Assembly (NCBI GenBank): GCA_963575745.1
Contig: CAUYUJ010000002.1
Span: forward strand, 806,001-870,000
DNA: 64,000 nt
Origin: Prorocentrum cordatum
Lineage: Eukaryota
Direction of reading: 5' to 3'
The notes beneath the pieces were generated by a model, which was given only the letters and a program-made list of their open reading frames with translations, was not told the origin of the DNA and made no database searches. This document shows, one piece after another, positions 10,055 through 64,000 of this stretch. Each line of letters opens with the position of its first letter. Within the stretch, counting starts at the first letter, position 1. The position numbers and the translations under genes were made by a program.

Positions 10055-10086
<32 letters not shown>

Positions 10087-15000: not shown

Positions 15001-15082
15001 CGTCACGTCGAGGGCGAGGGGCTGGAGCTGGGGGGGTGGGTTTGCGCACGGCTTGCCGCGAGTGTCGCCAGTTCGCAGCCAC

Positions 15083-15719: not shown

Positions 15720-15879
15720 TAAGTCGGGCCTGTCCCTCTACAGGAGGAATATTCCAAAATAGTTAAAAAATAGTATGGGGACTAGTTTTCAGAATGTTTT
15801 GACTATGTTGGATCATTTTGGGGGTACTTTTTTGATTTGTCGTCCAAAATCCCCCTGTAGGGGGACATGCCCGAACTAA
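15720..15879. mobile_element. MITE family A, copy 2
   Basis: Same TIRs (TAAGTCGGGCCTGTCCCTCTACAGG ... CCCCCTGTAGGGGGACATGCCCGAACTA) and similar core as 5051-5207. Confidence 0.85.
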
Positions 15880-24952: not shown

Positions 24953-25910
<958 letters not shown>

Positions 25911-26249
25911 AAACCAATTGCCCTAGCCAGCCCAACCAGCCAACCCAACCAACCAGCCACCCAAACAACTCAACCTGCTCAACCAGCCCAACCAGCCACC
26001 TCGCAACCCCAGCCAACCCGCCACCCCGCCAACCCGCCCACCCCCGCCGCCTGCCCTCCGTCACCGTCGAGAGGGGGGGGGAAGTGTTTCTCACAAGCGA
26101 AAACTACAAAAATCACCCTCCCGGGGTCCGGCGGGACAGCGGGGGGAGGGGAAATCGCGCCGTACTATGCGGGAGCGGGATTCGCGCCCGAGGTGCCCAA
26201 AGACGATTTGGGGCCTCAAATGCGACACTGTCGTCACTTTATGACCTTT

Positions 26250-46162: not shown

Positions 46163-46170
46163 AATATATA

Positions 46171-46241
<71 letters not shown>
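46163..46241. repeat. (TA)n microsatellite
   Basis: Nearly pure TA run. Confidence 0.95.
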
Positions 46242-46243
<2 letters not shown>

Positions 46244-46244
46244 G

Positions 46245-47005
46245 GAATACGACGTCGATTCTAGCTCATTGCATGATGTGGTTGAGCGTGTGAGCCGAGC
46301 AGAACTGCCTGTTGCACAAACTACGCGTTTTTTTGTTCAACCGTTGCTCTCAGGAAGTCTAACACAAAAGTCAGAGGCATCTCGTCAGGAGACTCTTTCC
46401 GACGATTGGTGGCCAAAACCCTTGCAAGATAATATCAATCGTCGTTCAGGGAAAAAGTGTCACCATTGAATTTCGGGCTCTGCAAATACAAGCGGAACTG
46501 ATGCCTGGAAAGATGTATTGGACACGTTTCGGCAACTGTTCGGTATTTGTGGACCCGACGAGTGGGGCCCGGACCTACACGATGTACACTGCAACGCGTG
46601 GGTTGCACAAGCTAGACTGCCATTACGTTTTGGCGACTTGGGTTACGAGACTCTGTTTTTCTGTCGTCAGCTGCGTACTGGTCCAGTTGGGCGGATTCAA
46701 TACGGAGCCTTATCCTTGGATTTCCGACGATCGGTCGAGATATCTTATTCCACTTAACAAACCTGGAGAACGCTCAAAATTTGGCACCGGGGGCTCGACC
46801 CGATTGCCTCCGCGCCGCTGAAGAGGCTGTTCGATTCTGTGACAGTGCCAACTAGAACGACAGACCTCTCTGGGGCACACTTGCGGTCGACAATTCGCCG
46901 CCTGCGCCTCCCCCAATGCCATTGGCTCTAGGTGAATGGACTCACGGATGGCAATTCCATGCGTCCTCAGGCGTACTACGTCGAGCATATACGACGGTGT
47001 TGCGG
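46245..47005 (+). pseudogene. Fragment of a CRE-like (restriction-endonuclease-type) non-LTR retrotransposon ORF with an internal deletion
   Basis: Manual translation gives VALRKSNTKVRGISSGDSFRRLVAKTLAR*..PLNFGL (RT N-terminal blocks, ~46340-46480). It then jumps to post-RT motifs QARLPLRFGDLG, AAYWSSWADS and GEWTHGWQFHAS. The YxDD core is missing; stops and frameshifts present. Confidence 0.7.
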
Positions 47006-47007
47006 CA

Positions 47008-47243
47008 CCAACGGGACTCGCAACTGAACAACGGGACTCGCAACTGGAACAACGGGACTCGCAACTGGCAACAACGGGACCCGCAACTGGCAACAACTCG
47101 ACTCGCAACTGGCAACAACGGGACTCGTAACTGGCAACAACGGGACTCGCAATTGGCAACAACGAGACTCGCAACTGGCACGAGATTCGTAACTGGCAGC
47201 ATCGGGATTCGCAATTGGCAGGCTCGCAATTGGCAGCAACGGG
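47008..47243. repeat. 22-bp minisatellite (GCAACTGGCAACAACGGGACTC), ~11 copies
   Basis: Head-to-tail units, e.g. starting at 47061 and 47083. Confidence 0.9.
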
Positions 47244-47261
47244 GCGCGCAAACGAAGGAAT

Positions 47262-47675
47262 TGTAGAGACGTGCGGCTTTTGCAGGAGATCCCGTTTAAG
47301 CGGGAAAGTCGATAAAAGAAATAGAGTTCGTTTGGGTTAGGCGGGGGAACCGGCCTACCAATTCAGCGGGATCCGGCTTACGCGGGGGAAACAGTTTAAG
47401 CGGGATATCCGGCTCAAGCAGGAGAGCCGGGAGAGCTGGCTTCAAAAAGAAAACTAGGTTTAATGGGAGAGGTCGCTTTTGTGAATGGAACCCGTGTAAT
47501 ACCCTCATATATACTCCTTATCCTTACCTATCCTGCGCCTGGCCGTTTGGGCTCAAATATTGAGATAGATCGATCAGACTTTGATCGTGCGGGAGGGAAA
47601 GATATCCATCTATCCCTCCTTCTCTCTACCAACGGATCAGGGGTTCTGTGCCCTTGTACTTCAACCCCATACACA
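47262..47675 (+). repeat. Putative 5' LTR
   Basis: Ends ...CCATACACA immediately before the PBS. Candidate starts are TGTAGAG (47262) or TGTGAATGG (47480; 8/9 inverted match to the terminal CCATACACA). The partner LTR is not in the window. Confidence 0.55.
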
Positions 47676-47687
47676 GGTTATCAGCCC
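47676..47687 (+). promoter_or_regulatory. Primer-binding site, half-tRNA (anticodon-arm) type: GGTTATCAGCCC
   Basis: Directly follows the CA terminus and precedes gag; resembles the GGTTATG(G/A)GCCC PBS of copia-type elements primed by a 5' fragment of initiator tRNA-Met. Confidence 0.7.
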
Positions 47688-47739
47688 TTTAAAGCTCACC
47701 CTCACCGACTCGCCCGCGGTGACCTCGCATGCGAGCCTG

Positions 47740-49513
47740 ATGGAGCCACTTCGGCGCATGCGCCGCAAGGGTTCCATCGGGGCTTCGCGTCCGAGCTCTC
47801 CCACGGCCCGACGGCTCGGTGACGAGTTGGAGAGCATTAGTGCGGACTGTGTTGGTGTTCCAGATACCCCCCCCAGCTCCGAAGGACCCGAGGCGCGACT
47901 AGCTGCTGAACTTCGCCGCAGCGCCGCCCGCGGGGGGACAGGAGAAGGAGTAGGAACAGGAAGGAAGGAGTTTCACGCGCCGACCTTCGATCCCCCCCCT
48001 CCCTTCCCCGTCGGGAGCAATCCCAACCGCGTCAGGCGAAAGCCTTGCTGGCCTCGACACTCCAGGGCGCTTTCGCGCTAACCGCCGATGGACCTCAGGC
48101 GCAGGGACCCCCAGCCCTGCGAACGTCCCCGTGGCGGAGCACGTAGCCACCTTCGAGGAACTCAGTAGACCAGTGTCGGTACAGCCACAGACGCGGTACC
48201 CCAAGGTATCATCGGATGCGACACCACACACACATGGTCCGAGTCGCAGCTCGTCCGCGCGCAACCGCCGTGGAGCCCCAGGCCCATACGGCGAAAATAG
48301 GTCGAACCCGCGCACTGCCTCTCAGAGGCCACGCACTCCCCGCGACAGGGGACACAGGGAAGCTGACGCTCCCCACCTCTCCATCTCAGACGACCAGCTG
48401 GCGGAGACGTCCGCCGCAGATGACATAGCTGAGCTCAGAGACCAGGTTGAAACCTTCGTGTCCAGGCAATACTCTGGACTACTACAGAGCGTTCAGACGA
48501 ACGCCACCGATACTGCTGCCATACGCCGCGATCTTGACGGCGCCTTAGGGATCATCGATTCCAGGATCGCCGAAGATCGACGCATCATAGGAGAACTGCA
48601 GCACCAGGTTGATCGCGAGGTGTCACACTCAGGTGAACGAACGGCGATGGCCGAGAACCTGCGCAACTATCTCGCGCAGATGGAGCAACAGCTTGTGCTC
48701 GTACGCGACACAGGCGTTTCCGCAGTCAGGATTTTACATGATGAGATCCACGACCAGCTCCGCAACCGACCAACTCCAACCGAGGCCACTGACCTTGGCG
48801 ACGTTCAGTCTCAGATCAATGATCTTCGATCTTATCTGGACCACACTACGGCGACGCTTCGTACCGAAGCACACACCAACTCGTCGAACCTGATCGACAT
48901 GTTGCAGCGCACTGAGAGAGTCATTACTCAAAGGCTTGATGCGACCAACGCTGTCGCGCAGCCACTCGCTAACCGGATCTCTGACATAGAGCAGCGTTTT
49001 CCTGGTGTACAGGACGCCCTGGCAGAGTTGCGTGTCGGACGAGCCCAGACTGATCAGCTGGATTCTCCTCCCACGGTTTACGATTTCGCCCGCCTCACTG
49101 ACAGGTTGCAGGAGGTTCAGAAGGCGGCGGACCACACGCAGTTGGAGCTCTCCCAGGTTATTCATGAAAGAGATACTGAGAAGGTACGTGTAGAGAGTTA
49201 CCTCGCACGTCTGGAAAGCGAGATGGAGGCACAAAGCGCCCGTCTCCGAGCATACGAGCATCGACTTGATCGGTATTCACAACGTTCTCGGGATACTGAT
49301 GAGTATACACGCCAAAAGGTGGGTCAAATACAAGAAGACATGACGAGCTGGACGAATCAGCTGATCGACCACACTCACGACACCAACCTCCACTTTCGAC
49401 ATACAGCCGACCTGCACAGGCCGACGGCAGCGTCCGCCGAAGCACCACAAGTTTCTGCAGGACAACAACGACGTACGTCCCCAGGAGAAGCCTCCGCGGC
49501 AGCTTCTGCATAG
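47740..49513 (+). CDS. gag: Gag N-terminal region, long predicted coiled coil (interrupted)
   Basis: ORF 48131-49513 is rich in L/E/Q/R heptads. The probable true start is ATG 47740 (MEPLRRMRR), joined by a frameshift in the C-run at ~47992-48003. It ends in TAG 49511, in frame with the next ORF. Confidence 0.6.
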
Positions 49514-51331: not shown

Positions 51332-53632
51332 GTGGCCACACCAACTGCGATCCGAAAGTATGACGACACTGTCAAACAGTCATCAAAGACTGACCAGACG
51401 ACAACAACGACAAAGCAAGTCGACCCTCCACGTTCGACCGCAGCATTGACAAGGTCTTGGGTTCTCGACAGTGGTTCTGCTCATCATATTCAGGGAAAAC
51501 ACGAACTTACGCAGACCGAGTCGGATCGCATATCTATTCGCGAAGAGCATATTCTGGAAACCGCCAATGGTGATCGCACCGTCAATGAGCACTACGACAT
51601 ACGGCTACCCGAGGTTGGGCTGCATAGTTCAGCCCTTGCTCTACCAGACTGCCCATCATTACTATCAGTTGGGAAATTGATTGAGGCTGATGGCTTTCGA
51701 CAGCTTTGGGATCCTGAGCTGGGCTACCTGCTTCAGGACCCGGGGGGCCAATGGTATAAGATTCCAATCAACAATCGAGTGCCAGAGTTACGACTTGACG
51801 ACTTAACATTGATACCACCACCACGTTTATGCACTTCGTCAGCACCCCGCCGTCGTCAGCGCAAGCGTTCATCCGCCCGCTGTAACGACATTTGTTGGTG
51901 CTGCAAAACTACAGAGCAACCAACCACTGCAGACGAGCTTCGGCCCCACATAGGGACCTGCCCCAAGAGACCACATGTCGGAGAGGGAGGAGGAGCACGG
52001 ACCACCACGGTCGAAGAACCTCCCGACACAAGCACAGACGAGCCCAACGTGGACACAACCACCGACTCGCCTACGTCTCAGACGCAGTGTTCTCCTCCAC
52101 AATGCGGGGGGTTAGATATAGCTCAAGCAGATAACGACATACCGACAGAGACACCCACACGAACGCATCCAGACAACGATCGAGTTCTACCCAACAGACA
52201 AAAGAAACCGATCGACCCGATGCATTATATGACTCACAGCCCAAAACACCCTGATTGTGAGATCTGTTCTCGTACGATGGCACAGAATGCCCCGCGTAGA
52301 CGACAGCGCAAACCACATCCACCGGCAGACCCCACCGACGAGGATAACGCCTGCGAGGCTTTTGTCCCGAAGAAGTTCGGTGAGGCTCTAACTGCCGACC
52401 ATATCGTACTGGCCAAAGACGATGCCGCGGACAAGCATGGCGACAAATATGCACTTGTTGTCCTTGACAGATATACCGGCATCTTCACGGCCTACCCAGC
52501 GCTACATAAAGACGCAGCTACCACAAAGGCATCCTTTCAACAGTTCATCGCCGCGAACGATGAGGTGAAGCATATCTATACAGACAACTCTGGAGAGCTT
52601 CAGAAAGCTTGCCGCCAACTGGGATGGAGACACGACGCGAGTACGCCACATCGTCCGCAGACAAATGGATTGATTGAGCGCGTTGTCAAAATTGTCATTC
52701 TCGGTACAAGAGCTGTGTTACATATGTCTGGTCTGGGACACGAATGGTGGAAAGAGGCCATGCAAGCCTTTTGCTGTGGACACAATGTTGTGCATACATC
52801 CACGGGCGCGGCTGCCCTCAGCGAAGAACATGCAGAAAAGACAGCTCATGAAATGCGATTTGGCGAAAGCTTTCCTTGGCACTGTATACCATTCGGTGCT
52901 CGGATCTTTTGGAGATGCCTCAACCCCGAGATTAACAACGAGACTGCAAAGTTCAAAGAAAATACCCGGGAAGGGTTATTCATGGGATACCACTTACACT
53001 CTGGTGGACGATGGTCAGGTGACTACCTTGTTTTGGACACGGCTACATACGCCAAGAATCCTGATGGTGAACTGTGTCATGTGCACAGAGTCAAAGACAT
53101 CATCATTCCTGATGGCAAGTTCACCTACCCAGTGAAAGATGGTACTCTACGACATCATAACCCTGAGGCACACGACGAGGTGAAGGCATCCACTTCTCGC
53201 CCCTTGGGCGACAAGCCAATGCCTGACCCTCCACTTTCCTACCCTAAAGAGTGGGATGACCCATCTATGATGACAACGGAGGATAACGCTGTTGATATCC
53301 AGACATCGGCCTCTGAAGTTGCTGCACCAGCGCCGGAGCCAGACTACTGGGAACAGCGTGGATATTGCGTCATCAGACATATCCGTACTCCAAGAAAGAA
53401 ACTGTTCATCCCGACGGACGACGTCATGAACATACCTGTACCTGTTGATCAACTCGATGTGACACGGGATTTCCAAACGACTTCTACTTTTGAGGGAGAA
53501 AGTAACTTCCGAGACGTTTGGGGTGGTGTTAGCGCCAACGACCACAGGGAGTTAAGTGAGCCGTGGACAGGCGCGATTCAGTTCTATGAACTTCCAAATA
53601 CTGTATGCCAAATTACCTGGTGGGCCACGTGA
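51332..53632 (+). CDS. pol: Pol part 1: aspartic protease + integrase
   Basis: WVLDSGSAHHI (D at 51467) ... SLLSVGKL. Integrase HHCC HYMTHSPKHPDCEIC (52223), catalytic TADH, YTDNSGE and NGLIER, plus a GLFMGY motif. Frameshift to the next part at ~53590-53630. Confidence 0.92.
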   Translation: MATPTAIRKYDDTVKQSSKTDQTTTTTKQVDPPRSTAALTRSWVLDSGSAHHIQGKHELTQTESDRISIREEHILETANGDRTVNEHYDIRLPEVGLHSSALALPDCPSLLSVGKLIEADGFRQLWDPELGYLLQDPGGQWYKIPINNRVPELRLDDLTLIPPPRLCTSSAPRRRQRKRSSARCNDICWCCKTTEQPTTADELRPHIGTCPKRPHVGEGGGARTTTVEEPPDTSTDEPNVDTTTDSPTSQTQCSPPQCGGLDIAQADNDIPTETPTRTHPDNDRVLPNRQKKPIDPMHYMTHSPKHPDCEICSRTMAQNAPRRRQRKPHPPADPTDEDNACEAFVPKKFGEALTADHIVLAKDDAADKHGDKYALVVLDRYTGIFTAYPALHKDAATTKASFQQFIAANDEVKHIYTDNSGELQKACRQLGWRHDASTPHRPQTNGLIERVVKIVILGTRAVLHMSGLGHEWWKEAMQAFCCGHNVVHTSTGAAALSEEHAEKTAHEMRFGESFPWHCIPFGARIFWRCLNPEINNETAKFKENTREGLFMGYHLHSGGRWSGDYLVLDTATYAKNPDGELCHVHRVKDIIIPDGKFTYPVKDGTLRHHNPEAHDEVKASTSRPLGDKPMPDPPLSYPKEWDDPSMMTTEDNAVDIQTSASEVAAPAPEPDYWEQRGYCVIRHIRTPRKKLFIPTDDVMNIPVPVDQLDVTRDFQTTSTFEGESNFRDVWGGVSANDHRELSEPWTGAIQFYELPNTVCQITWWAT

Positions 53633-56465
53633 CATTACTACGGTACTGTACTACCGTCAACTATCACAACAGCATGATGGAGAAGAACGTGCTTTGGTAT
53701 TTGTGGATAGCGAGGGAACCGACTTTGGGACTTTGAACCCGCTTATACGCAAGTTCACCCGGCCGGTAGTAATACCAACCATGCCACGTGAGACCAACTA
53801 CACGCCGGCACACAGAGATAAAATACCAGATTCAGCATGGTCACGCCCAGCACTAGTTACCAGAAACTTGAGTAAGAAAGAAGTTGCCGCAGAATCACGT
53901 GCACAAGAAGCCCTACGAAAAGAATACGAGAGATTGGAAAAGAAACAAACATGGATGTTGGAGACTGTTGCAGAAAAAGCTCATATTGAGTCACAAGCTA
54001 TCCGCAATGGAACAAAGGTGCATTTCTTCAATATCTTGGAGTTATCTTCAGTCAAACATGAGGAACTTCTTCCTGATCTACGTCAATTCAACGGCAGAGT
54101 GGTGGTTCAGGGCAATACAGGCAAAGATGAAACTGGCTTGGCCGCCATATTCGCCGACGCCGCTTCCAGTGCTTCGCATATAGAGGCTTCCAAACTTTGC
54201 GATGCCACTGCGTTATTGCCGCAATATGCGGGATAGCAAAGTGACGCACCTGGAGCCTACACGCAGGCCTTACTATACGGCGACGGACGAATTGATCCAG
54301 TTGATACTTGGATTACTATACCTAAATGGCGACAACCGACATCATGGTCAAAATACAAGAACCCAGTGTGCAGATTGCGATTGGCACTATACGGACATCC
54401 TCTCGCAGGTGTCTTTTGGGAACGAAAATGCCGTACATGCTTGGAAAGCGTTGGTTTCGAGCCTATTTCAGGATGGGAATGCGTATGGAGACACAACAAA
54501 CTGGGACTGATACTTTCAGTATATGTGGACGATTTTAAATTGGCCGGCCCAGCTCATAATCTACGGACTGGCTGGGATTATATTCGCAAAAGCGGTGTTG
54601 ACTTGGATCCACCTACCCCATACTCACAATATTTGGGTTGTGGACAACAAGCACATGATGTACCGCAGAACATCTTCGACAAAAGAATGTCCACAATACG
54701 CCCTATGCTACCTGCACACAATGAGAAAGATTACAATACGGCCAAACACGTTCGTGGCATTCGACATGATATGCTTGGTTTTACAGATCAGTGCATTGAG
54801 CGATACCTGGAATGCGCATCCAATCGCGCCCAGGGAACAGGGTCACGTCGGAAACGATCCGACTCGCCGAGGGCTTCGCGATCCAAATCGCCAACATCCT
54901 CCGGGTCGGTCGCCAGACCTACTAGTGTGCTCAACGCACGGCCACGATCATCCAGTCCAGCAAAATCGGTCGACACGACATCTACCAATACCATGCCCGC
55001 CACATGCCATGACCTACCCGACGCAGAGACCCCTGGCATCGAGGACACCTCTTTCACTGAGTCCGACTATTCAGACGAGGGCATCCTCGGCCAGGACGCG
55101 GCAAGTGTACTAATGAAGATCTTGTACTTGGCACGTTGCTGTCGTTTCGATCTTCTACATCCGGTATGTATGTTGGCCAGAGAAATTACCAAATGGAATA
55201 CTACATGTGACAAACGTCTACATCGGTTGATATGCTACATCAAAACGACGCGCGCACATTGCTTACACGGATGGATTGGCGATTCGTCAGACAAGTTATC
55301 CATCATGTTCTTTACCGACGCCTCGTTCGCTGATTGCATTACATCAGCCAAATCCACTACCGGTGTTTTTGCTGCGCTTGTTGGACCCAATACGTTCTTT
55401 CCAGTCAACGATGTATGTAAGAAACAAACGGTTGTTTCACATTCATCTACTGAATCTGAGATTGTTGCTCTCGATTCCGCACTACGACTGGAAGGGTTAC
55501 CACTACTATCATTCTGGGAAGCCGTGGTGGGAATTGCCAAAACATGCAAAGAGAAGAATGCATGCCTGAGCTGCCATCGACACGTCGACCCGGCGATGTG
55601 TCCCACATTGGCAGCCAAAAAGAAGCGTACACCATCGCCTCGCAAGGCCCCCCCTACACGGGGATCTTCTCCTAGCCGTAGGCAACTACCGCTAAATACG
55701 GATTTACCTACGCCTCCAAAAAGACGCACAATATCCCATGAAGGTACAGTACTACACGTGGATCCAGAGCCAGTTCAAGAGATCAGTGCTCCCAAAGTAC
55801 GTCTTATCGCCCTGGAGGATAACCAGGCCGCCATCAAAATTGTCCAAAAGGGACGTACACCAGCACTTCGTCATCTTCATCGTACTCATCGTATCAATCT
55901 GGATTGGATATGCGAAACATGCCAACTCGAACATATCGAGCTCAAATACGTAGGAACAAAAGAGCAGATCGCAGATATGATGACCAAACATTTCGAGACA
56001 AAGAAAGCAGACCTTTGGAAGGATCTCTTGGAACATTCGCTTATCTTTCCCGTTCCTCCGATACAATGTCCTCCGATACGAGGGTTTCGGAGGCCCGACG
56101 GTTTACCTCATGAAGCTGAGCCTCCTAAATTGAATGGATGCCCAGACATATGCAAGATATTGCTGACGGAAAAAGAAAGATGGGGCGAGGTAGGATCAGA
56201 ATGCGGATTTCAGTGTGTTGGGCAAGCTAATCACGAGGGACTATGTGCATGCATGTACCACATTGGCGTACCAGCTGCAGATATTGCATCGCGCACACCT
56301 CGTTCACGCGCACGTTCACCGCACGGTAGACACCCCCGTCATCCTCCCTCGCCTCCACGAGATGCAGAGAGAGTTAGGACATGGATTATCCGTTCATGCC
56401 CAATTTTACGACTCGAGCTACAAAGCTTACAAGCATCTTGTTCGCCGTTTGCGAGGCGAATATAA
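53556..56465 (+). CDS. pol: Pol part 2: reverse transcriptase + RNase H (in-frame TAG at 54234)
   Basis: GRVVVQGN, *QSDAPGAYTQA, RLALYGHPLAG..W, SVYVDDF (54522), YLGC. RNase H motifs FTDASFAD, VSHSSTESEIVA, LEDNQAAI and KEQIADMMTK. ORFs 53556-54236 and 54366-56465 share one frame. Confidence 0.93.
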
Positions 56466-58540
56466 GTGAGATCGGTTATAATCCCGACCCCCCCATCCAC
56501 GAGATGGATCAGGCACAGCCGCTCCACCTCGTCGGCTGGCCCATCGGCTACGACACGGAGTACGATCCGAACGCCAGGGACGACGACCGCGTGGGCTTCA
56601 CGTACCACGCTCAAACTGGCCGTCCTCGTGATCCCGAAGACGGTTACATATACATACATCAACGGCGTGCTGATCGAAGCGGGGAGTTCGATCTTCGCGT
56701 ACCCGACGAATCCTCTATTCGAGAGTTTGCCCGCTTCGCGTCCGTCGAGGCTAAGAAATGGGCCAATACCGAGAGTGGATCCGTCGGCGGCAACGCCAAC
56801 TACGAGCACAACACGTTCACAACTACGCCGTGGCTATCATTCATGCGTGCTATGTGTATGATTTCCAGCCTTTTCAATCGTAATCCCTCGGTACAAGAAA
56901 GTGTTCGTGGACTACATGATCACTTGAACGCGGTGATCCCAGGATCGCACCGCAAGTGTCCACCAGAAAACTTCACGACAATGATACTGAAAACGGAGTG
57001 GATGATGATTCACAACGATTGGTCCAAAATTGGCAGTGCAGTATTGGGACAATACACCGAGGACAGCGTTCGGGATACACAAAGATACTATAACAATGGT
57101 CTGTGTGCACCATCCGATGTATACCAAAATGGATTGGTAACGCCATGCTATGCTCCTAAAATTGATCGTGCAACGGCCAAGTTGCCTACTCGCCCACCTG
57201 GCATTGCCAGGACATCGGATACATCTGGACACATCGGCCATATTGTTGAAGATAATTTGGTCACCAACATGAGAGCATTTTCCGACTTTAACCAAACAAA
57301 CAAATTCCGCCGCAAGCTTACTACACGGCTGACGGCGCGCGGAGGCTTTGGAAGTATCGGATCAAACGCCAAGACGGTGGCAACACCATCCGACCATGCG
57401 AATGGTTGGGTGGCGATATTGGACGATCCACAAGATACAGACCGTACCTATCGTTGGACACCATACAACGAGGGCAACGACTTCTTCGGCGAAGCCGCTG
57501 ACCAGATCGGTTCGAATGACCCTGGCCTTACTCCTGGTAATGATGTTGACCCATTTGAGCTGGACCACGCAAAATACAGTGCTGTCTGCGGTGGTCGCTT
57601 GGTTTCTACCCTACTTTCAGATAATGGGTGGCACTCCCTCATACAAGAGGACTTGGGACTACTGTTGCATCATGCATGTGGGCCATCGGGTCACACGTAC
57701 AAATGGACCAACTTGTATACTGACTCAACATGGATCATGCAGCCCAAGAAAGGGGCCAAGAGTGCAAAACACAAGAAGTATCCTACTTTCGGCACCCAGA
57801 AGAGAATCGACCTCGCCAATGCATCAAATACTGCTCTTGTGCCGCTATTTATGCCGCGCCTCAACCGCGCGGAATACATGGGCGGCGCTACTCTTGTGCA
57901 TTTTTCGACCATTATCCGCGACGACATCATGATGTGGGCATTTTCCTTTGGCAATTATAGGGAATGGTTCAGACAGAATGACACGCCGATCGGTCAAGAT
58001 TGTGTTCTCTTGCCTGAAACTGGTTATGACGACATACGCTATGGTATGGAAGAACTACGCAAGCAACGTTTCGAGAAAGAAGATAGCCGTACCAACGCTA
58101 TTCTCAACAACCAGTTTGAGAACACTCTCGAGCAGCGCAATATGATCAGGAAGATCCGCGAAGCCAGAGGCCTCATGTTTCAAAGCGACAACGCTTCTAT
58201 CAAGAAGTGGCGCGAGTTGAATGAGACTATCTGGGATTACTGGGCCAACGATTTCCCATCATACGTGGAACAAAGACACTATTGCAGGGGACTTAATGCC
58301 ATGGTAGTATGGAGCGCGAACGACATCGCGTGTGCCAATCACGGACAAAACACCATCGACATGCGCCGACATCAGAATCGTGCTCCGACTAACGTATACG
58401 AGCTCCAAAAGATGGAATGTGAGGGCGGCGTCCCGACGCTCATGCCCGTGCACGTGCTCGTGGACGTGTCACGTTTTGTCGACGTGATGCAGTATTTCCG
58501 TTGCCCCACGGTCATGGGACCTGGAAAAGCAGCGCAATGA
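56381..58540 (+). CDS. Cargo polyprotein part 1; unknown N-terminal domain plus a possible SGNH/GDSL-hydrolase-like fold
   Basis: 719-codon complex ORF starting at ATG and overlapping the end of pol in another frame; motifs LYTDS, MGGATL, VVWSAND; ends in TGA in frame with part 2. Confidence 0.7.
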   Translation: MDYPFMPNFTTRATKLTSILFAVCEANISEIGYNPDPPIHEMDQAQPLHLVGWPIGYDTEYDPNARDDDRVGFTYHAQTGRPRDPEDGYIYIHQRRADRSGEFDLRVPDESSIREFARFASVEAKKWANTESGSVGGNANYEHNTFTTTPWLSFMRAMCMISSLFNRNPSVQESVRGLHDHLNAVIPGSHRKCPPENFTTMILKTEWMMIHNDWSKIGSAVLGQYTEDSVRDTQRYYNNGLCAPSDVYQNGLVTPCYAPKIDRATAKLPTRPPGIARTSDTSGHIGHIVEDNLVTNMRAFSDFNQTNKFRRKLTTRLTARGGFGSIGSNAKTVATPSDHANGWVAILDDPQDTDRTYRWTPYNEGNDFFGEAADQIGSNDPGLTPGNDVDPFELDHAKYSAVCGGRLVSTLLSDNGWHSLIQEDLGLLLHHACGPSGHTYKWTNLYTDSTWIMQPKKGAKSAKHKKYPTFGTQKRIDLANASNTALVPLFMPRLNRAEYMGGATLVHFSTIIRDDIMMWAFSFGNYREWFRQNDTPIGQDCVLLPETGYDDIRYGMEELRKQRFEKEDSRTNAILNNQFENTLEQRNMIRKIREARGLMFQSDNASIKKWRELNETIWDYWANDFPSYVEQRHYCRGLNAMVVWSANDIACANHGQNTIDMRRHQNRAPTNVYELQKMECEGGVPTLMPVHVLVDVSRFVDVMQYFRCPTVMGPGKAAQ

Positions 58541-61500
58541 GGCGCACATCCGAACTTTGATCACCACGCGAGCGACCTGATCAATATCATGCAGAACCGT
58601 GGTATCACTGTTCTTCCATCCGATCATTGGGTGGATACGCACGATAGGATTACTCCACAGGCTTGGCACGCCAAGCAGAACAACCATAACATGGCAATGT
58701 TTACAACGCAGTTCTGCGACGCAGCATGCTATCGCAATTTCTGCACTTTGATACAGTCTCTGCCTTCTCAGCCATATCCATTCAGGCCGCCATTGCTGAC
58801 TGCTGTCACGGACGATCAGGCCTACACGCAGGCCAAAGAAATCATGGCAGCCCTCGATTTCAGAGAAAAGTTGACAAACGAATGGGAAAGAGACCTCAGC
58901 CTCACGACGTTGATGACACAGACGGCAAACGAGATGGCTCATTGTGCGTGGATGGCGTCATGTGCCGAGGGTACATTGCCGGCATCACTGCCTGCCGAAG
59001 CAGGCGACACCACTGAGCCTACTCCTGGAATGTCGACACGCACGCCAGCACCTGACCCTGGCGATCCTGACCAAACCCTTCCTGAGAATGATCCATGGGT
59101 TATCGCATACAACGACTTGTTCCAGTACCTCATGCTGTTGATCAAAGACTACCCTGGGGCTTGGGCATCTTGGCATTCTCTTGAGAAAATGGAACTCCTA
59201 CATCCCAAGATCGTCAAAACTGTTGAAGATGCACATGCAGTTACTTGGGTTGTATTCGAGCATTTCTTACATCAGATCAAAGATTTGGATGGAGATGATA
59301 ATGCGACCAAAGTAAGAATCATTGCAGAAGATAACAGGTTGTCTTCTCACTGCATCGGCCCAGCTGCCGCGAACGAGAAGAACATCGAAGCATGCAAAAC
59401 ATTCTTCAAGCAGAATGCACTGGATCGGGTTGCTTTGGGTCATGACCCTGATATTCCTACAGCCGCATGGAAGGCAGCTGCTGATACAGCACAGCCAGCC
59501 CCACCAGGCCCATTGCCTGATCCACTGCAACCTGTACCGCAATCGATAAAAGTGTCGCAACCATCGACTCCAGAACCCAAAGCAGAACAACCGCCAGCAG
59601 ATCAGCTCCCAAAGGCTGAGGCGGTGCCGATCCCTGACGACGGCACCGACCTTGAGGCCATGGAGTTGGAGGCAACTCCTGCCGAGGAGGAGCCTTCTCC
59701 ACATGAGATGCAGGACAGCTGCGAGCGTTCCATGCACGAGGACACCAGCAAGATCGGGATATTCGATAACGCATGCACTATTCGAGAGTGGAAGCTACAA
59801 GCAGGCATCAAATATGACCATCCATACATGTGCCCAATGTTGCGGGGCACGCGCGCAACCAATGGATTTGCCTGCGTGGAAGACCATGAATGGTACGATC
59901 AACTATTGCATGATGATAGTGTGATTGCTCATACGCCTGACATCGCACAGTCTGGTTGCTTCCCAGACTGGAAATGGATATCATTACCACATTACGACGA
60001 TGTACGTTATGGTCCCGAGCTAATTGAGGAAGATTGGTTGGGAGCAGTCAAATGGATGGGCAAAGACATAACGACTATGTTACGCCATGAGATTCACTAC
60101 AAAAAGTTTTGGATCAACCAATTTCATGACAGACGTATCAATATCTGGGAGAAAACAAAAAAGAATGAATGGACGATTCCAAGCAATTGGAAATCCTTTA
60201 AAGAGATGGTCGAATGGAAATTCAGAGATCGAAAAGACAAACACAATGGACCAGCCATGGAAGCGGCAGTGGCACACTTTAAGAAAGATTGTGAACATGA
60301 TGGATATGCCGATTGGAACGACTACTACCCGATATTCATCATTCATGCGTTCCAGAAACATATTGATTCGCAGAAAAACAGAATCGAGATACATGCCAAG
60401 CCGATCCCTGAGGGAGGTGACCCCAGTTCTTTTGACTGGAACAGCGTCATCGTTATTCGGTGCGTTGGTGGTCACAGTTGTGCCAATCCATCTTCCAAGC
60501 CATGGAATATGGGATGGGAGAGCCTACAATGGACAGATGTTAAATATCTCCATCACGGCACAGCATCCCGCGCTTGGAAGAACATATTGAAGACAGGGAT
60601 CATTCCTGGATACGTTGATCCAACTTCTCAGAGAGACAAACATCATAAACCATCACAGCGCTCTGAGGCATTATTTAGTTCTAGCACATATTTGAACAAT
60701 GTCCAAAAGAATCCACACACTTCAGTGGAATCATACAAGTTCAATAACTACAAGAACGAGGTCGAGCTGGTGATCAACATGGAGATCGCCACAACAGCAG
60801 GTTGCAGATTTTGGTTGGGTGCTCAGGGCGCTATCATGACAGAGGACGTGGTACCCGCTGCGGCAATTATTGCAATTCGCCGCCTCAAGCCACACCACAT
60901 GCATGGCCAGCAGTTATGGCCAGATGGCGACCCATGGGACTACCCGCCATTGGCAGCAAGACAGCCATTGAGTAAGTACGAGATTTGCGCCTACCTTCCT
61001 GGAGAGCTCATCGATGACCCTCCTGGGATAGCACCTGTCAACCCCGACCAGAACATGGAGCCTCCAAGGACAACGTCAGCGTCAGCACCTTCGGTCAAGC
61101 TGGGGGAAACCCCTGCTAGCCGCACGTCTGCAGACGACGCCTTGGATGAACAAATAGTCCGCGCTATGATTCGGGAGACCAATCACAAAGCAGATGATAA
61201 AGAATGGTTAATTGCCTTGTCATACTGTCGCGAAGCTCTTCGACCGATCACATCGAAGATCATGCAAAAAGATCGGGGCCGTCGCCCTGCATTTAATGAT
61301 GTTCGAATGGGAGACTTCATTGTCGTCAAGAATTGGGGTTCTACCAAATGCTTTCATTGCGACAATCACTGGCCCAAGGGCAATCACAATACCAAGATTG
61401 CCTTGACCAAGGGACGCATATATGGTCAAATCATCCATTTCGGCATCTTCGACAAGTTCTTCGCGGTACAAGTACCTATTCTCAACTACGGTTTACGATG

Positions 61501-62269
61501 GGTAAACATATGGTATAATGACAAAAGCATGCCCCTCAAGGGCGTCGTCTTTGCATTGCCGATTCGTATCGAAGAACTCGCCATTGACCCAACATATATG
61601 GAGACCGTCCTGAAAGGTCCGACATCACGCAGCGAAAAGATACTCCAGCACAAGACCGATGGCAGTTTACCATACCTTGGCATGCCGAGCATTCATAGAC
61701 CACGTATTCCGCGTACACCGCCCAGAAGGCCCGCTCCTCGGACACCCGATCCCGATGAGCTGGTGGCCACACCTGCCGAGGACAACGCTCATACGGGCGA
61801 CAATCCTCGACAGACTGCAGCATCATCGCGTGATCCGTTGATCGCCGTAATCGTGGACATATCGAACATAACGCTCACTGTTGATGAGAAAGCTGCGAAC
61901 GACAACATGGGAGCAGATCTCTCGGCAGACATCCAAGCAGATGAGCAGATTGAGGCAAGCATCCTCGACAACATCATTGACCCGCCATCGGACTTCCTTA
62001 ACCATCCAGATTACGACCCCGACGAGGGTTCAAGATGGATTAAACAGTCAGATGACTGCCGTGTATATTGTTGGACATCGGAGCTGCTGGTGGATTCGCC
62101 GATGATCAAGATGAAACAGATCATCGAGATACACAGTGGCGCAGACAGAATTGTAATGGACAAAACACAGTCGCATTTACAATTAGAGATTCGATTTGGA
62201 TCGAAAGCATGGAATGCAGAATCATACCAATTGAACTACGATCATACCCACAAATGGGCACGTGACTGA
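58541..62269 (+). CDS. Cargo polyprotein part 2 containing a Tpt1/KptA-like RNA 2'-phosphotransferase domain (~60050-60885)
   Basis: In order: KDITTMLRH, DGYADW, QKNRIE, IRCVGGHS, LHHGT..AWKNILKTGI, RSEALFS, LVINMEIATTAGCRFWLGAQGAIMTEDVVP. These match the Tpt1/KptA motif series (SK.LS.LLRH, DGW, K.RF, IRA.QGHS, LYHGT..I..GL, R..VHLS, ID..A..G..F..S.NGV.LT..IP). Confidence 0.82.
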   Translation, partial: GAHPNFDHHASDLINIMQNRGITVLPSDHWVDTHDRITPQAWHAKQNNHNMAMFTTQFCDAACYRNFCTLIQSLPSQPYPFRPPLLTAVTDDQAYTQAKEIMAALDFREKLTNEWERDLSLTTLMTQTANEMAHCAWMASCAEGTLPASLPAEAGDTTEPTPGMSTRTPAPDPGDPDQTLPENDPWVIAYNDLFQYLMLLIKDYPGAWASWHSLEKMELLHPKIVKTVEDAHAVTWVVFEHFLHQIKDLDGDDNATKVRIIAEDNRLSSHCIGPAAANEKNIEACKTFFKQNALDRVALGHDPDIPTAAWKAAADTAQPAPPGPLPDPLQPVPQSIKVSQPSTPEPKAEQPPADQLPKAEAVPIPDDGTDLEAMELEATPAEEEPSPHEMQDSCERSMHEDTSKIGIFDNACTIREWKLQAGIKYDHPYMCPMLRGTRATNGFACVEDHEWYDQLLHDDSVIAHTPDIAQSGCFPDWKWISLPHYDDVRYGPELIEEDWLGAVKWMGKDITTMLRHEIHYKKFWINQFHDRRINIWEKTKKNEWTIPSNWKSFKEMVEWKFRDRKDKHNGPAMEAAVAHFKKDCEHDGYADWNDYYPIFIIHAFQKHIDSQKNRIEIHAKPIPEGGDPSSFDWNSVIVIRCVGGHSCANPSSKPWNMGWESLQWTDVKYLHHGTASRAWKNILKTGIIPGYVDPTSQRDKHHKPSQRSEALFSSSTYLNNVQKNPHTSVESYKFNNYKNEVELVINMEIATTAGCRFWLGAQGAIMTEDVVPAAAIIAIRRLKPHHMHGQQLWPDGDPWDYPPLAARQPLSKYEICAYLPGELIDDPPGIAPVNPDQNMEPPRTTSASAPSVKLGETPASRTSADDALDEQIVRAMIRETNHKADDKEWLIALSYCREALRPITSKIMQKDRGRRPAFNDVRMGDFIVVKNWGSTKCFHCDNHWPKGNHNTKIALTKGRIYGQIIHFGIFDKFFAVQVPILNYGLRWVNIWYNDKSMPLKGVVFALPIRIEELAIDPTYMETVLKGPTSRSEKILQHKTDGSLPYLGMPSIHRPRIPRTPPRRPAPRTPDPDELVATPAEDNAHTGDNPRQTAASSRDPLIAVIVDISNITLTVDEKAANDNMGADLSADIQADEQIEASILDNIIDPPSDFLNHPDYDPDEGSRWIKQSDDCRVYCWTSELLVDSPMIKMKQIIEIHSGADRIVMDKTQSHLQLEIRFGSKAWNAESYQLNYDHTHKWARD

Positions 62270-64000
62270 CCAAATTGCAGCGCAGATCATTTCTTCAAAA
62301 AGTTGATACATTACCTCGACCCAGAGACTATCGAGGAGTCGGCCACAGGCATCTTTCAATGGATCTCCAAAGTATACCAGAACATCTTGAAAGATAGTAT
62401 TGCGGAGCTTCCAGATTTCACCAAAGAGGCCATCCATGAGAAACATCCTGCACTCCAGGCATTGCGTGACCTATTCAAAAATTGTACTGAGACATACGGT
62501 AATCCAGACTTTCCTGTATGGGAAGAGCCGGTGGAAACACCTGCTGCGCCTCGTGGGCAAGGCGCTGAGCAGGATATTCCCCAGGATCCAGGCAGCGTTG
62601 CGTCTGCAGCTCCTGATCAGGAAACCATGGTACGTATCTTGGCCGAGCAGACGGGACTCAAGCGCGAGGAGGGCGACAACGAGGCCACCTTGCAGGAGAA
62701 AGCTCGCCGTCTTCGTGAAGAGAACGCATGCCATGGCGGTGCCGAGGATACGGACAACACCAAGATAGAGTACAAAGGACTGCAAGGGGAAAGATTGTCT
62801 AGGATCGAGATCGAGGGTTTAAGTAGATCAATCGCTTCCCGACCGAACACCGAGACCAATCGTGAGGCGATCAATCAGATCGGCCAGAGCCTCGCTCGCG
62901 GTCAGGACACCCGCTGGGGATCCCGCGATCACCTCACTTCGGAAGGGGCCCCCGAGACGATATTGCATCCCATGCCGCTCTGTGAGAATTGCGGTCGAGA
63001 TCTGTCCCTCGGGATTGTCACAGGTGACGGCACATTTTGTGATATCTGTTGGCAGTATACCGTGGCCGTAGGCGCCACGGGTAAGAGCACCGCTACACAG
63101 AGCGATCTCGCGTACCTCCAGAAGATGACGAACTGGATCAAGAAGACACTCTCGGAGGACCACATCGCGAGATACATGAAGGACGGCGCGCACGTCATTA
63201 TGACGGGTGCGCGATCGCACGCAGGCAACGAGAAAGATCAGTTGCGGAGATTGGTCAATGCGCCCAGAAAGAGGCATCAGAAGTGGGTCGAATCAGGTAG
63301 CCCTCCTGCACACGAGCGCAGACTGATGGGCGAATCCGAGGACGACCGACCTCTGTACTACCCATTCGCCAATCTCGTACAACGCTTTCTCAACGACCTC
63401 AAGTTCCACCACCAAATGACAGGCGCCCGCGTGAACATCGGCAAGAAGCCCTGGACCGTGGAGGACATGCGCGATGCGTGGGACATCCTCGACGTCAGTA
63501 TTAGGACAGGACAGGCTGGTCGGAGGAAATGGTGGCTGAACGAGGGGCGCCTCGACAGGCAGACGCGGCAGGCCCGCGGACTGGTCACGGTTTCTCTACC
63601 TAGAAGAGACGGAACCCGTGAACAGTTCACTCAGCGTAAGCTTGCCGCGATTGCCAATGAGTTGTTAGGCTCCCTCGATCCGGCACATACCGACCAGAGG
63701 GGGGTTGATACAGGGATGAGAACCGATCCCGATGCACAATCCCACCAGTCCGATGATGCCATGGAGCCGCGCCATCCGCGGCCGCCGCCGCGCCCTGCTC
63801 CTGGCGACGCTGCTGCGCCCAGCGCCTCAGGCGCGACGGACTACGCGCCCGCGGGGCCGCGTACCAAGAGAGCGCGTACATCAGATTACGCCGCGTACTG
63901 GCGCGATGACCTCGAGGACAGCTACCGGGGGCTTAGGTACTGGAGTTACTACATCAACTGTTGGATCTACATCGCGATCAACAACGATGAGTACGTATAC
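62270..64000 (+). CDS. Cargo polyprotein part 3 (open to the window end, absent from the ORF track) with a C4 zinc ribbon
   Basis: Manual translation in the same frame after TGA 62267 (PNCSADHFFKKLIHY...) has no stop through 64000; contains CENCGRDLSLGIVTGDGTFCDIC at ~62980-63048. Confidence 0.75.

What the first reader, a model, noticed from the sequence alone, without database searches (positions are those of the whole stretch)
47262..64000. Giant copia element with a >2,500-codon cargo frame downstream of RNase H
Seen: coding on one strand from ~47.7 kb to the window end. After RNase H there is no PPT/LTR. Instead a second frame (56381 to >64000, at least 2,540 codons) is broken only by two single TGA codons and shows no introns or microsatellites, unlike the surrounding genome. 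Established: typical copia elements are ~5-8 kb, and known extra ORFs (env-like ORFs of sireviruses, DNA methyltransferases of some algal retrotransposons) are of other kinds. Inference: a distinct lineage of oversized multi-enzyme copia elements.
Basis: partly seen in the sequence, partly recalled or inferred. Interest (0 to 1): 0.78.

Follow-up and report, generated by a model that had tools for sequence, protein, structure and literature searches.

The report
Giant copia retrotransposon with Tpt1-like cargo
This is a slightly damaged copy of a high-copy copia-type retrotransposon from a marine-type eukaryote whose polymerase gene runs on for at least 2,540 extra codons, including an apparently intact RNA 2'-phosphotransferase-like enzyme not reported in such elements in the papers I could search.

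Summary
From 47.7 kb to the window end, one strand encodes gag (three CCCH fingers), protease, integrase, RVT_2 reverse transcriptase and RNase H. An open frame follows from 56378 to beyond 64000: 2,541 codons with two TGA, against 50-130 stops in the other five frames.

Contigs from four public runs cover gag-pol and cargo alike, in thousands of variants at 85-100% identity. In three of the four runs, most contigs crossing 56396-56400 carry four extra bases. That puts the cargo in frame with RT-RNase H. The stops at 54234 and 62267 are private to this copy, and 9 of 11 relatives read W at the 58538 TGA. So the family encodes a pol-cargo fusion and the window holds a decayed copy.

One cargo segment (about 60038-60922) is a Tpt1/KptA-like domain. 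VIA-align gives Z 12.4 and the 21 best Foldseek matches are all Tpt1/KptA. The Arg-His-Arg-Arg tetrad is conserved in the window and in 13/15 to 15/15 related fragments at each site. The rest of the cargo matched nothing.

The 3' LTR lies outside the window and could not be checked. "Multi-enzyme" is not shown. Verdict: a new variant of a known kind, interest about 0.7.

The parts
47004..47220 (.). 22-bp tandem array of about 10 copies, directly upstream of the candidate LTR. Whether it is host flank or part of the element is unresolved.
   Evidence: Tandem Repeats Finder. One low-depth contig of run X3 spans 47080-47370 (record 17).
47262..47675 (+). Candidate 5' LTR, starting TGT and ending ACA. 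The alternative start is 47480. The boundary is not fixed and no second copy lies in the window.
   Evidence: Sequence read directly. No other copy in the window. Contig cover rises within the bin 46903-47536.
47676..47687 (+). PBS-like dodecamer directly after the candidate LTR. From memory it resembles the half-tRNA (initiator-Met anticodon stem-loop) primer sites of copia and Ty5.
   Evidence: Sequence. The similarity is recalled, not tested. Half-tRNA priming itself is described in passages of PMC5371799.
47740..51328 (+). gag-like region. It starts at the ATG at 47740 in frame 1 and continues in frame 2 from about 48000. It holds a long helical/coiled stretch and three CCCH zinc fingers (50297-50353, 50471-50530, 50540-50596). 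There is a TAG at 49511.
   Evidence: Other copies lack one base at 48000, which joins the two frames (table 4).
51332..53632 (+). Protease (DSG at 51464-51481) and integrase (HHCC at 52223-52267, rve core around 52391-52681). A TAG at 51329 precedes this part.
   Evidence: Pfam rve E 2.2e-6. Motifs located.
53596..53598 (+). Site in the INT-RT linker where the other copies carry extra sequence that the window lacks. It coincides with the switch from frame 2 to frame 0.
   Evidence: Loose ends on both sides in all 4 runs (table 7).
53556..56465 (+). Reverse transcriptase (RVT_2, YVDD at 54522-54533) and RNase H (55311-55994), followed by about 130 further codons. There is a TAG at 54234.
   Evidence: At 54234 every laid contig of all 4 runs reads G instead of T (table 3).
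56396..56400 (+). Junction between pol and cargo. The window copy is four bases shorter than the dominant form in three of the four runs.
   Evidence: table 4. Depth carrying the extra bases against depth at the site: X2 410.3 of 446.2, X3 62.9 of 70.6, X5 24.1 of 24.1. In X1 it is 0 of 120.5, plus 3.4 of 33.7 for a one-base form.
56378..64000 (+). Cargo frame of at least 2,541 codons, open at the window end. TGA at 58538 and 62267.
   Evidence: 121 related protein fragments tile residues 1-1200 of the middle piece. At 62268 all laid contigs read T instead of G. Relatives read W in 9 of 11 rows and R in 2 of 11 at the 58538 codon.
60038..60922 (+). Tpt1/KptA-like NAD+-dependent RNA 2'-phosphotransferase / ADP-ribosyltransferase-fold domain with both lobes. 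Tetrad motifs lie at 60077-60091 (R-H), 60452-60478 (R) and 60653-60682 (R). The H-G-T motif lies at 60548-60562.
   Evidence: Pfam PF01885, AF2 model, Foldseek, VIA-align, profile alignment to 6e3a, residue counts.
61412..61519 (+). Small conserved module of unknown fold. It also occurs at the N-terminus of an unrelated-order relative, P0235.

Best explanation
The region is one mildly decayed copy of a multi-copy Ty1/copia-type retrotransposon family of a eukaryote whose relatives are marine protists. In the family's dominant form the pol reading frame does not stop after RNase H. It continues for at least 2,540 more codons, so the element would be translated as a very long gag-pol-X polyprotein (more than 5,400 codons from the ATG at 47740 to the window end) that the element's protease presumably cuts up.

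X is a chain of conserved globular modules joined by Pro/Ser/Ala-rich linkers. One module is a Tpt1/KptA-type enzyme with its catalytic Arg-His-Arg-Arg tetrad intact.

Shown: the anatomy, membership of the cargo in the repeat family, the in-frame fusion in most copies of three runs, the private nature of three of the five stops, and the Tpt1-like fold and residues.

Inferred: that the enzyme uses NAD+ to act on phosphate ends of the element's own nucleic acids inside the particle. It could remove a 2'- or terminal phosphate, for instance to give a cleaved tRNA-half primer an extendable 3'-OH. It could instead ADP-ribosylate a 5'-phosphate end of RNA or cDNA. I put the structural reading at about 0.8 and any one enzymatic role at 0.3 or less.
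For: Copia identity. The order PR-INT-RT-RNase H is present with DSG, HHCC, D-D-E, YVDD and RNase H motifs. The RT-RNase H piece has 256 relatives at E<=0.001 among 7,999 scored candidates. Most of the 120 listed carry PF07727, and the few named ones are a Symbiodinium protein and a Ty1/Copia polyprotein.

The cargo is coding. It has 2 stops in 2,541 codons against 50-130 in the other five frames, and 200 shuffles gave a mean of 113.7. An exhaustive HMMER search with residues 1-1200 of the middle piece found 121 proteins at E<=0.001 (74 at <=1e-10). These are mostly fragments of 46-250 aa at 28-92% identity, and together they tile the whole query.

The cargo belongs to the element. Contigs of four runs from four studies cover 27-30 of the 30 bins. 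They number 1,883 to 17,154 laid contigs per run, spread over the identity classes >=99%, 95-99%, 90-95% and <90%, and cover runs without a break from gag through the cargo. Contigs crossing 56396-56400 carry four extra bases in X2 (410.3 of 446.2 depth), X3 (62.9 of 70.6) and X5 (24.1 of 24.1). By the frame arithmetic this puts window frame 2 in register with frame 0.

The window copy is decayed. At 54234 and 62268 all laid contigs of all four runs differ from the window, so neither stop exists there. Other copies lack one base at 48000, and other copies carry extra sequence at 53596/53598. At the 58538 TGA, relatives read W in 9 of 11 rows and R in 2 of 11.

Tpt1-like domain. PF01885 scores 25.6 bits against a cutoff of 26 in the window, and 27.0 in relative P0235. 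The AF2 C-lobe has pLDDT 85-97. The 21 best Foldseek PDB matches listed are all Tpt1/KptA, the best at E 5e-5. VIA-align gives Z 12.4, rmsd 4.2, with 177 of 206 residues aligned to mouse TRPT1 across both lobes. The family profile aligns to residues 9-179 of C. thermocellum Tpt1 (6e3a), with R18, H19, R68 and R121 matched. Those four form the essential tetrad according to passages of PMC6333775. Among aligned fragments they are conserved in 15/15, 13/15, 12/12 and 20/21 rows.
Against: The 3' end (stop codon, PPT, 3' LTR, TSD) lies outside the window, so LTR status is inferred from the protein domains only.

In run X1 the few contigs laid across 56396-56400 mostly lack the four extra bases (0 of 120.5). 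A form with the two frames out of register therefore also circulates.

A single uninterrupted gag-pol-X frame is thus not proven. The TAG at 51329 sits just before the protease and could be a real gag/pol stop.

No full-length or longer protein relative of the cargo was found. None of the 120 listed RT-RNase H relatives carries cargo-like sequence, so the fusion is documented only within this one family.

The window's Pfam score is just under the gathering cutoff, and the RNA lobe of the model has low confidence with an insertion of roughly 100 residues.

About 2,200 cargo residues have no assigned fold or function. No expression data were obtained.
Confidence: 0.72

Rival explanations
1. The cargo is a separate third ORF of the element, reached by ribosomal frameshifting or reinitiation in the 88-base overlap 56378-56465. 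On this reading the window's out-of-register arrangement is the functional one, not a fusion to pol.
For: The window has an 88-base overlap of the two open frames. In run X1 the contigs laid across the site mostly share the window's state (0 of 120.5 depth with the three-base part, 3.4 of 33.7 with the one-base part).
Against: In X2, X3 and X5 the dominant form has four extra bases that put the frames in register: 410.3/446.2, 62.9/70.6 and 24.1/24.1. The window copy carries at least three other private defects, so a private four-base loss fits the pattern. X1 depth at this site is far below its bin mean (about 1,288 for the bin 55779-56412), so few of its contigs were laid across the site.
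Confidence: 0.12
2. The long frame is not part of the copia element. It is a neighbouring repeat, a host multigene family member or another mobile element, next to or nested with a 3'-truncated copia.
For: No 3' LTR or PPT is seen after RNase H. The Tpt1-like module and the small downstream module occur in a different order in P0235, and a piece of the module is fused to WD40 and PDEase domains in the predicted protein P0217. None of the 120 listed RT-RNase H relatives has cargo-like sequence.
Against: The same junction, with its in-register variant, is carried by high-depth contigs in three independent runs. The adjacency is therefore a property of the repeat family, not of this locus. There is no break in contig cover, no boundary repeat and no change in repeat content at 56.4 kb. 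P0217 looks like a gene model that merges a repeat fragment with host exons.
Confidence: 0.08
3. The whole region is part of a larger composite or virus-like integrated element that merely contains a copia-like gag-pol module. It does not move as an LTR retrotransposon.
For: Only one end is visible. gag is atypical: about 1,200 codons, with CCCH fingers instead of CCHC knuckles. Most of the cargo has no known relatives.
Against: A TGT...ACA block followed at once by a PBS-like motif sits just upstream of gag. All pol domains and catalytic motifs are in copia order. No viral hallmark family was hit in Pfam, PHROGs or IMG/VR scans.
Confidence: 0.06

Closest known systems
Ty1/copia (Pseudoviridae) LTR retrotransposons, including the marine-protist copia elements that are its nearest RT relatives
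   Same: The order gag-PR-INT-RT-RNase H, an RVT_2-type RT with YVDD, an rve integrase, and a TGT...ACA block with an adjacent PBS-like motif.
   Different: At least 16.2 kb of coding sequence, against the usual 5-9 kb total length (general knowledge). gag is about 1,200 codons, with three CCCH fingers instead of CCHC knuckles. There is an extension of at least 2,540 codons after RNase H. None of the 120 listed RT relatives has cargo-like sequence.
Retrotransposons that captured an enzyme domain into pol: DNMT in Symbiodinium LINE and DIRS elements and in Klebsormidium Gypsy (PMC5890265, passages read); AlkB-type demethylase in orchid Ty3/gypsy (PMC9289625, abstract in a search listing only); dUTPase in relatives P0101 and P0113
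   Same: A host-type nucleic-acid enzyme sits inside the Pol polyprotein frame with its catalytic residues conserved across copies.
   Different: The enzyme here is Tpt1/KptA-like, not a DNMT, AlkB or dUTPase. It is only about 300 of more than 2,500 added residues. PMC5890265 states that Symbiodinium copia elements lack a DNMT domain, and no DNMT was found here.
Tpt1/KptA/TRPT1 RNA 2'-phosphotransferases
   Same: A two-lobe fold (Z 12.4 to mouse TRPT1), the H-G-T motif and the Arg-His-Arg-Arg tetrad.
   Different: It is embedded in a retrotransposon polyprotein instead of being a free protein of about 180-250 aa. It has a roughly 100-residue insertion in the RNA lobe. Identity to solved Tpt1 chains is only 13-28% (rows). 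The Pfam score is 25.6 against a cutoff of 26.
Sirevirus-type copia elements with an env-like extra ORF, and bdelloid LTR elements with captured extra ORFs (PMC5408684, abstract in a search listing only)
   Same: Extra coding capacity downstream of pol in an LTR element.
   Different: No hydrophobic, transmembrane-like window anywhere in the 2,540 residues. The cargo is fused to pol rather than being a separate ORF in most copies, and it is several times longer.

Membership tests
Ty1/copia LTR retrotransposon | Pol domain order PR-INT-RT-RNase H (integrase before RT) | tested here: met
   DSG at 51464, HHCC at 52223, rve core at 52391-52681, YVDD at 54522, RNase H at 55311-55994.
Ty1/copia LTR retrotransposon | RVT_2-type reverse transcriptase | tested here: met
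   PF07727 is hit at E 1.2e-5, though below the gathering score (25.5 against 31.6). Relatives reach E 8e-129, and most of the 120 listed carry PF07727.
Ty1/copia LTR retrotransposon | Two long terminal repeats flanked by a target-site duplication, with a polypurine tract before the 3' LTR | not testable with these tools
   The 3' end lies beyond 64000, no genome is held, and there is no second copy of 47200-47760 in the window.
Ty1/copia LTR retrotransposon | tRNA primer-binding site directly after the 5' LTR | tested here: inconclusive
   A dodecamer at 47676-47687 follows ...ACA. Its likeness to the half-tRNA primer sites of copia and Ty5 is recalled from memory. No tRNA gene is in the window to compare with.
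Ty1/copia LTR retrotransposon | gag with a CCHC zinc knuckle (typical, not strictly defining) | tested here: not met
   There are three CCCH fingers instead (PF18345 and PF00642; coordinates).
Tpt1/KptA RNA 2'-phosphotransferase | Two-lobe fold: a winged-helix RNA lobe plus an ADP-ribosyltransferase-type NAD+ lobe | tested here: met
   Foldseek's 21 best listed matches are all Tpt1/KptA. VIA-align gives Z 12.4, rmsd 4.2, 177 residues aligned, model 111-405 against chain 19-224. The RNA lobe of the model has low pLDDT.
Tpt1/KptA RNA 2'-phosphotransferase | [quoted passage not shown] | tested here: met
   The profile alignment to 6e3a matches R18, H19, R68 and R121. All four are present in the window. 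Among fragments they are conserved in 15/15, 13/15, 12/12 and 20/21 rows.
Tpt1/KptA RNA 2'-phosphotransferase | Pfam PF01885 gathering score (26 bits) | tested here: inconclusive
   The window scores 23.2-25.6 bits. Relative P0235 scores 27.0 and P0137 scores 21.7.
Tpt1/KptA RNA 2'-phosphotransferase | NAD+-dependent removal of RNA 2'-phosphate, or ADP-ribosylation of 5'-phosphate ends | not testable with these tools
   This needs an enzyme assay.
Sirevirus-like copia with an env-like ORF | Downstream ORF with transmembrane segments | tested here: not met
   No 19-residue window reaches a mean Kyte-Doolittle hydropathy above 1.4 in the cargo.
DNMT-bearing retrotransposons | C5 cytosine methyltransferase domain in the element | tested here: not met
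   No DNA methylase family appears among Pfam hits, even at E up to 5.

The most novel reading that the evidence does not exclude
A lineage of giant pseudovirus-like retrotransposons encodes one polyprotein of more than 5,400 codons. In it a Tpt1/KptA-type enzyme and some 2,200 residues of wholly uncharacterised conserved modules have become part of the replication machinery. The enzyme might heal or cap the phosphate ends of the tRNA-half primer, the genomic RNA or the cDNA. That would be the first retroelement to carry its own nucleic-acid end-modifying ADP-ribosyltransferase.
Probability: 0.3. Interest if true: 0.85.

Novelty: new variant of a known kind. Interest (0 to 1): 0.7.

Why it matters
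LTR retrotransposons rarely fix new protein domains. Known cases add a single domain of a few hundred residues. Here a copia family has roughly doubled its coding length and kept the addition open and conserved across relatives down to about 30-35% identity.

The one recognisable module is an enzyme whose role outside fungal and plant tRNA splicing is still an open question. A retroelement that needs it would offer a natural system for finding what Tpt1/KptA enzymes do to RNA or DNA ends. The family is also abundant enough in marine sequence data to matter for annotating protist genomes and for interpreting the many orphan protein fragments in metagenomes.

Tried and rejected
Genome and related loci. 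No genome is held for the window. Scans for related loci found nothing confirmable:
- Metagenome contigs with cargo piece 1 and with a small alignment;
- Viral contigs with cargo piece 2 and with RT-RNase H;
- Genome contigs with cargo piece 2.
Two larger alignments were too variable for the scanner.

Protein searches. The word-index search for cargo piece 2 found nothing at near lengths or longer lengths. The ESM Atlas gave no usable hit for cargo pieces 1 and 2.

Structure and family libraries. PDB sequence and profile searches gave nothing for the N-terminal 300 and the C-terminal 360 residues of piece 2 or for piece 1. Piece 3 gave only chance-level rows. NCBIfam and PADLOC gave nothing. 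PHROGs gave only a weak RNA 2'-phosphotransferase row.

Second AF2 model (nt 57941-59440, read through the TGA by table 4). It is all-helical with pTM 0.34. It has no Foldseek match at E<=0.001 and only generic helical matches in VIA-align, Z<=8.0. My guess of an SGNH-hydrolase-like domain there was not borne out.

RNA ligase/kinase/2H-phosphoesterase partner set for Tpt1. Motif scans found no HxT pair and only one P-loop-like string, which is about what chance gives. I rejected this idea for lack of evidence.

Other blanks. Rfam and tRNA scans of the window were empty. Earlier-findings look-ups returned nothing.

Sequencing runs. No RNA holder was listed, so nothing can be said about expression. 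Runs X1 and X3 have bins without cover in 45001-46902; I make nothing of that.

Literature. Searches for Tpt1/KptA together with copia, retrotransposons or transposable elements returned no relevant paper. Neither did searches for giant copia elements with extra ORFs in dinoflagellates or haptophytes. Ke et al. 1999 on Ty5 priming is not held.


Full report
WHAT IS THERE

On the + strand the window carries open frames from 47.7 kb to its end.
- Frame 2 is open from 47954 to 53632, with TAG codons at 49511 and 51329.
- Frame 0 is open from 53556 to 56465, with a TAG at 54234.
- Frame 2 is open again from 56378 to 64000 and beyond, with TGA codons at 58538 and 62267.

The last frame is 2,541 codons long. 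It has 2 stops, against 62 and 127 in the other two + frames and 50, 82 and 130 on the opposite strand. In 200 shuffles the mean was 113.7 stops and the minimum 88. Upstream, a frame-1 ORF (47569-48081) supplies an ATG at 47740.

It did not report the three TAG codons or the two frame switches inside gag-pol.

WHAT KIND OF ELEMENT

Pfam finds CCCH zinc fingers, an rve integrase core and RVT_2, in that order. By direct reading:
- the protease DSG is at 51464;
- the integrase HHCC is at 52223 and its D-D-E core at 52391-52681;
- the RT YVDD is at 54522;
- the RNase H motifs are at 55311-55994.

Integrase ahead of RT is the copia arrangement. The RT-RNase H piece has 256 relatives at E<=0.001 among 7,999 scored candidates. 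The best is 68% identical over 40% of the query. Most of the 120 listed come from environmental assemblies. The few named ones are a Symbiodinium protein and a Ty1/Copia polyprotein filed under a marine bacterium's name.

gag is unusual. It spans about 1,200 codons before the protease, has a long helical stretch, and has three CCCH fingers (50297-50596) rather than CCHC knuckles.

Just upstream of gag lies a TGT...ACA block ending at 47675. It is followed at once by a dodecamer (47676-47687) that I recall as resembling the half-tRNA primer sites of copia and Ty5. That way of priming is described in passages of PMC5371799. The sequence likeness itself rests on memory and was not tested.

The 5' boundary is not fixed. 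The candidates are 47262 and 47480. Contig cover rises inside the bin 46903-47536, and one low-depth contig of X3 spans 47080-47370. No second copy of 47200-47760 lies in the window, so the 3' LTR cannot be checked.

DOES THE LONG FRAME BELONG TO THE ELEMENT?

No genome is held, so I used public runs. A look-up with 54001-64000 listed ten holders from seven studies, with shares of 0.06 to 0.33. I laid the contigs of four runs from four studies on 45001-64000 at 85% likeness or more.

The four runs laid 17,154, 8,821, 2,388 and 1,883 contigs. They fall in every identity class; for X2 the counts are 1,437 at >=99%, 2,654 at 95-99%, 3,172 at 90-95% and 1,558 below 90%. They cover 27 to 30 of the 30 bins, from the bin 46903-47536 to the window end, with no break at 56.4 kb.

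The tool warns that summed contig depth is not a copy number and cannot rank parts. I use it only in one way. In X2, contigs on the flank have depths of 3-23 (records 9-11), while contigs on the cargo reach 90-463 (records 13-16). So the cargo, like gag-pol, exists in many diverged copies.

The junction is the key point. Contigs that cross 56396-56400 carry four extra bases in three runs: X2 (410.3 of 446.2 depth), X3 (62.9 of 70.6) and X5 (24.1 of 24.1). With four extra bases, codons of window frame 2 fall into register with frame 0. Frame 2 is already open from 56378, so RT-RNase H then reads straight on into the cargo.

In X1 the few contigs laid across the site mostly lack the extra bases (0 of 120.5, and 3.4 of 33.7 for a one-base form). 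An out-of-register form therefore also exists.

THE WINDOW COPY IS DECAYED

- At 54234 and at 62268, every laid contig of all four runs differs from the window, and neither stop codon exists in them (table 3).
- At the 58538 TGA, related protein fragments read W in 9 of 11 rows and R in 2 of 11.
- Other copies lack one base at 48000 (X2 358 of 358, X3 33 of 33, X1 86.6 of 178.8). This joins the ATG-bearing frame 1 to the gag frame.
- At 53596/53598, all four runs have loose ends on both sides. Other copies therefore carry sequence that the window lacks, exactly where frame 2 gives way to frame 0 (tables 4 and 7).

The TAG at 51329 lies just before the protease and could be a genuine gag/pol stop.

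IS THE CARGO A REAL PROTEIN?

An exhaustive HMMER search with residues 1-1200 of the middle piece (58541-62140) found 121 proteins at E<=0.001: 74 at <=1e-10 and 19 at <=1e-30. Nearly all are fragments of 46-250 aa at 28-92% identity, and together they tile the whole query.

Word-index searches found nothing of similar or greater length. That fits a repeat that assembles only into short contigs. Relatives at 34-46% identity still align without gaps across the 58538 codon.

The cargo has no transmembrane-like window and an ordinary globular composition. It has at least four stretches poor in hydrophobic residues that look like linkers.

WHAT IS IN THE CARGO?

One domain is recognisable. Pfam PF01885 (Tpt1/KptA RNA 2'-phosphotransferase) scores 23.2-25.6 bits against a cutoff of 26. 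The related protein P0235 scores 27.0.

An AF2 model of residues 390-830 of the middle piece, built with 48 aligned sequences, has a confident C-terminal lobe (pLDDT 85-97) and a weaker N-terminal part. Its 21 best Foldseek matches listed in the PDB are all Tpt1/KptA enzymes, the best at E 5e-5. VIA-align gives Z 12.4 (rmsd 4.2, 177 aligned) to mouse TRPT1 across both lobes. Bacterial ADP-ribosyltransferases follow at Z about 8.

A profile of the family aligns to residues 9-179 of Clostridium thermocellum Tpt1 (6e3a) at E 0.009. R18, H19, R68 and R121 are all matched. Passages of PMC6333775 name these four as the essential tetrad. In the window they lie at 60077-60091, 60452-60478 and 60653-60682. 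Among aligned fragments that cover each site they are kept in 15/15, 13/15, 12/12 and 20/21 rows.

Everything else in the cargo stayed blank:
- Pfam at E up to 5;
- NCBIfam, PADLOC and PHROGs;
- PDB sequence and profile searches;
- the ESM Atlas;
- a second AF2 model of 57941-59440, which is all-helical with no specific match.

HOW IT MOST LIKELY WORKS

Shown:
- a copia-type family with many diverged copies;
- a dominant form that fuses an extension of at least 2,540 codons to pol;
- a decayed copy in the window;
- a Tpt1/KptA-like module with its catalytic residues under conservation.

Inferred: the element is translated as a very long polyprotein, which its protease cuts into pieces. The Tpt1-like enzyme then uses NAD+ on phosphate ends of the element's own nucleic acids.

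Two concrete versions are possible. In one, the enzyme removes a 2'- or terminal phosphate so that a cleaved tRNA-half primer gains an extendable 3'-OH. The abstract of PMC6573784, seen in a search listing, reports terminal 2'/3' phosphomonoesterase activity in a subset of Tpt1 enzymes. In the other, it ADP-ribosylates 5'-phosphate ends of RNA or cDNA. The abstracts of PMC12678800 and PMC10415124, seen in the same listing, report that activity for this family. Neither version is tested, and I give each 0.3 or less.

RIVALS

A separate ORF3 reached by frameshifting is kept alive by run X1 and by the 88-base overlap of the two frames. It is disfavoured by the three other runs.

An unrelated neighbouring repeat is disfavoured because the same junction recurs in high-depth contigs of independent runs. 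In its favour, P0235 shows the Tpt1-like module and the small downstream module in another order. P0217 joins part of the module to WD40 and PDEase domains, which probably reflects a merged gene model.

A larger composite element cannot be excluded without the 3' end.

COMPARISON WITH WHAT IS KNOWN

Retrotransposons that have taken an enzyme into pol are known:
- DNMT in Symbiodinium LINE and DIRS elements and in a Klebsormidium Gypsy element. The same paper states that Symbiodinium copia elements lack a DNMT (PMC5890265, passages).
- An AlkB-type demethylase in orchid Gypsy elements (PMC9289625, abstract in a listing).
- dUTPase, in 2 of the 13 relatives I scanned.

My literature searches found no paper placing a Tpt1/KptA domain in a retrotransposon. 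They also found none describing copia elements of this size in dinoflagellates or haptophytes. Those searches cover only the held open-access library.

None of the 120 listed RT relatives carries cargo-like sequence.

VERDICT

This is a new variant of a known kind. Interest is about 0.7.

Noticed in passing
window 1-37000, e.g. 2174-2687, 5401-6062, 13889-14267, 21031-21274, 24864-26000: The host DNA upstream is packed with imperfect arrays of 9-15-base spacing (multiples of trinucleotide units such as GGA/GAG, CAT/CAG and TCC). GC rises to 0.60-0.70 in 2-kb windows. The element (47.7-64 kb) is free of such arrays and has GC 0.49-0.57.
   Followed up: partly
window 33488-35278: A long array with 21-22-base spacing lies in a stretch with very strong AT skew (0.69 for 34001-36000).
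   Followed up: no
window 23375-24232 and 37826-39453: Two further tandem arrays, with units of about 77 bases and about 101 bases.
   Followed up: no
window 47004-47220 and 46164-46240: A 22-base unit repeated about 10 times abuts the candidate 5' LTR. An (AT)n run of about 77 bases lies 0.8 kb further upstream. A contig of run X5 matches 46637-47004 and then continues with 130 letters unlike the window.
   Followed up: partly
window 50297-50596: The gag region has three CCCH-type zinc fingers instead of the usual CCHC knuckle. It is preceded by about 850 codons of largely helical and low-complexity protein, so gag is itself oversized.
   Followed up: partly
proteins P0101 and P0113 (relatives of the RT-RNase H piece): Two of 13 scanned relatives carry a dUTPase domain. 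In P0101 it sits N-terminal to the RT match, and in P0113 it sits C-terminal to RNase H. This clade of environmental copia elements has therefore picked up other enzyme domains as well.
   Followed up: partly
proteins P0235 and P0217 (relatives of the cargo): P0235 (764 aa) has the small conserved module ahead of the Tpt1-like domain, the reverse of the window's order, and it passes the Pfam PF01885 cutoff. P0217 (776 aa) joins part of the Tpt1-like RNA lobe to WD40 repeats and a cyclic-nucleotide phosphodiesterase domain, probably as a merged gene model.
   Followed up: partly
window 59709: One contig of run X2 (294.2 of 868.4 depth) carries 15 extra bases behind 59709, and other runs have loose ends there. 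This is an in-frame length variant inside a linker of the cargo.
   Followed up: no
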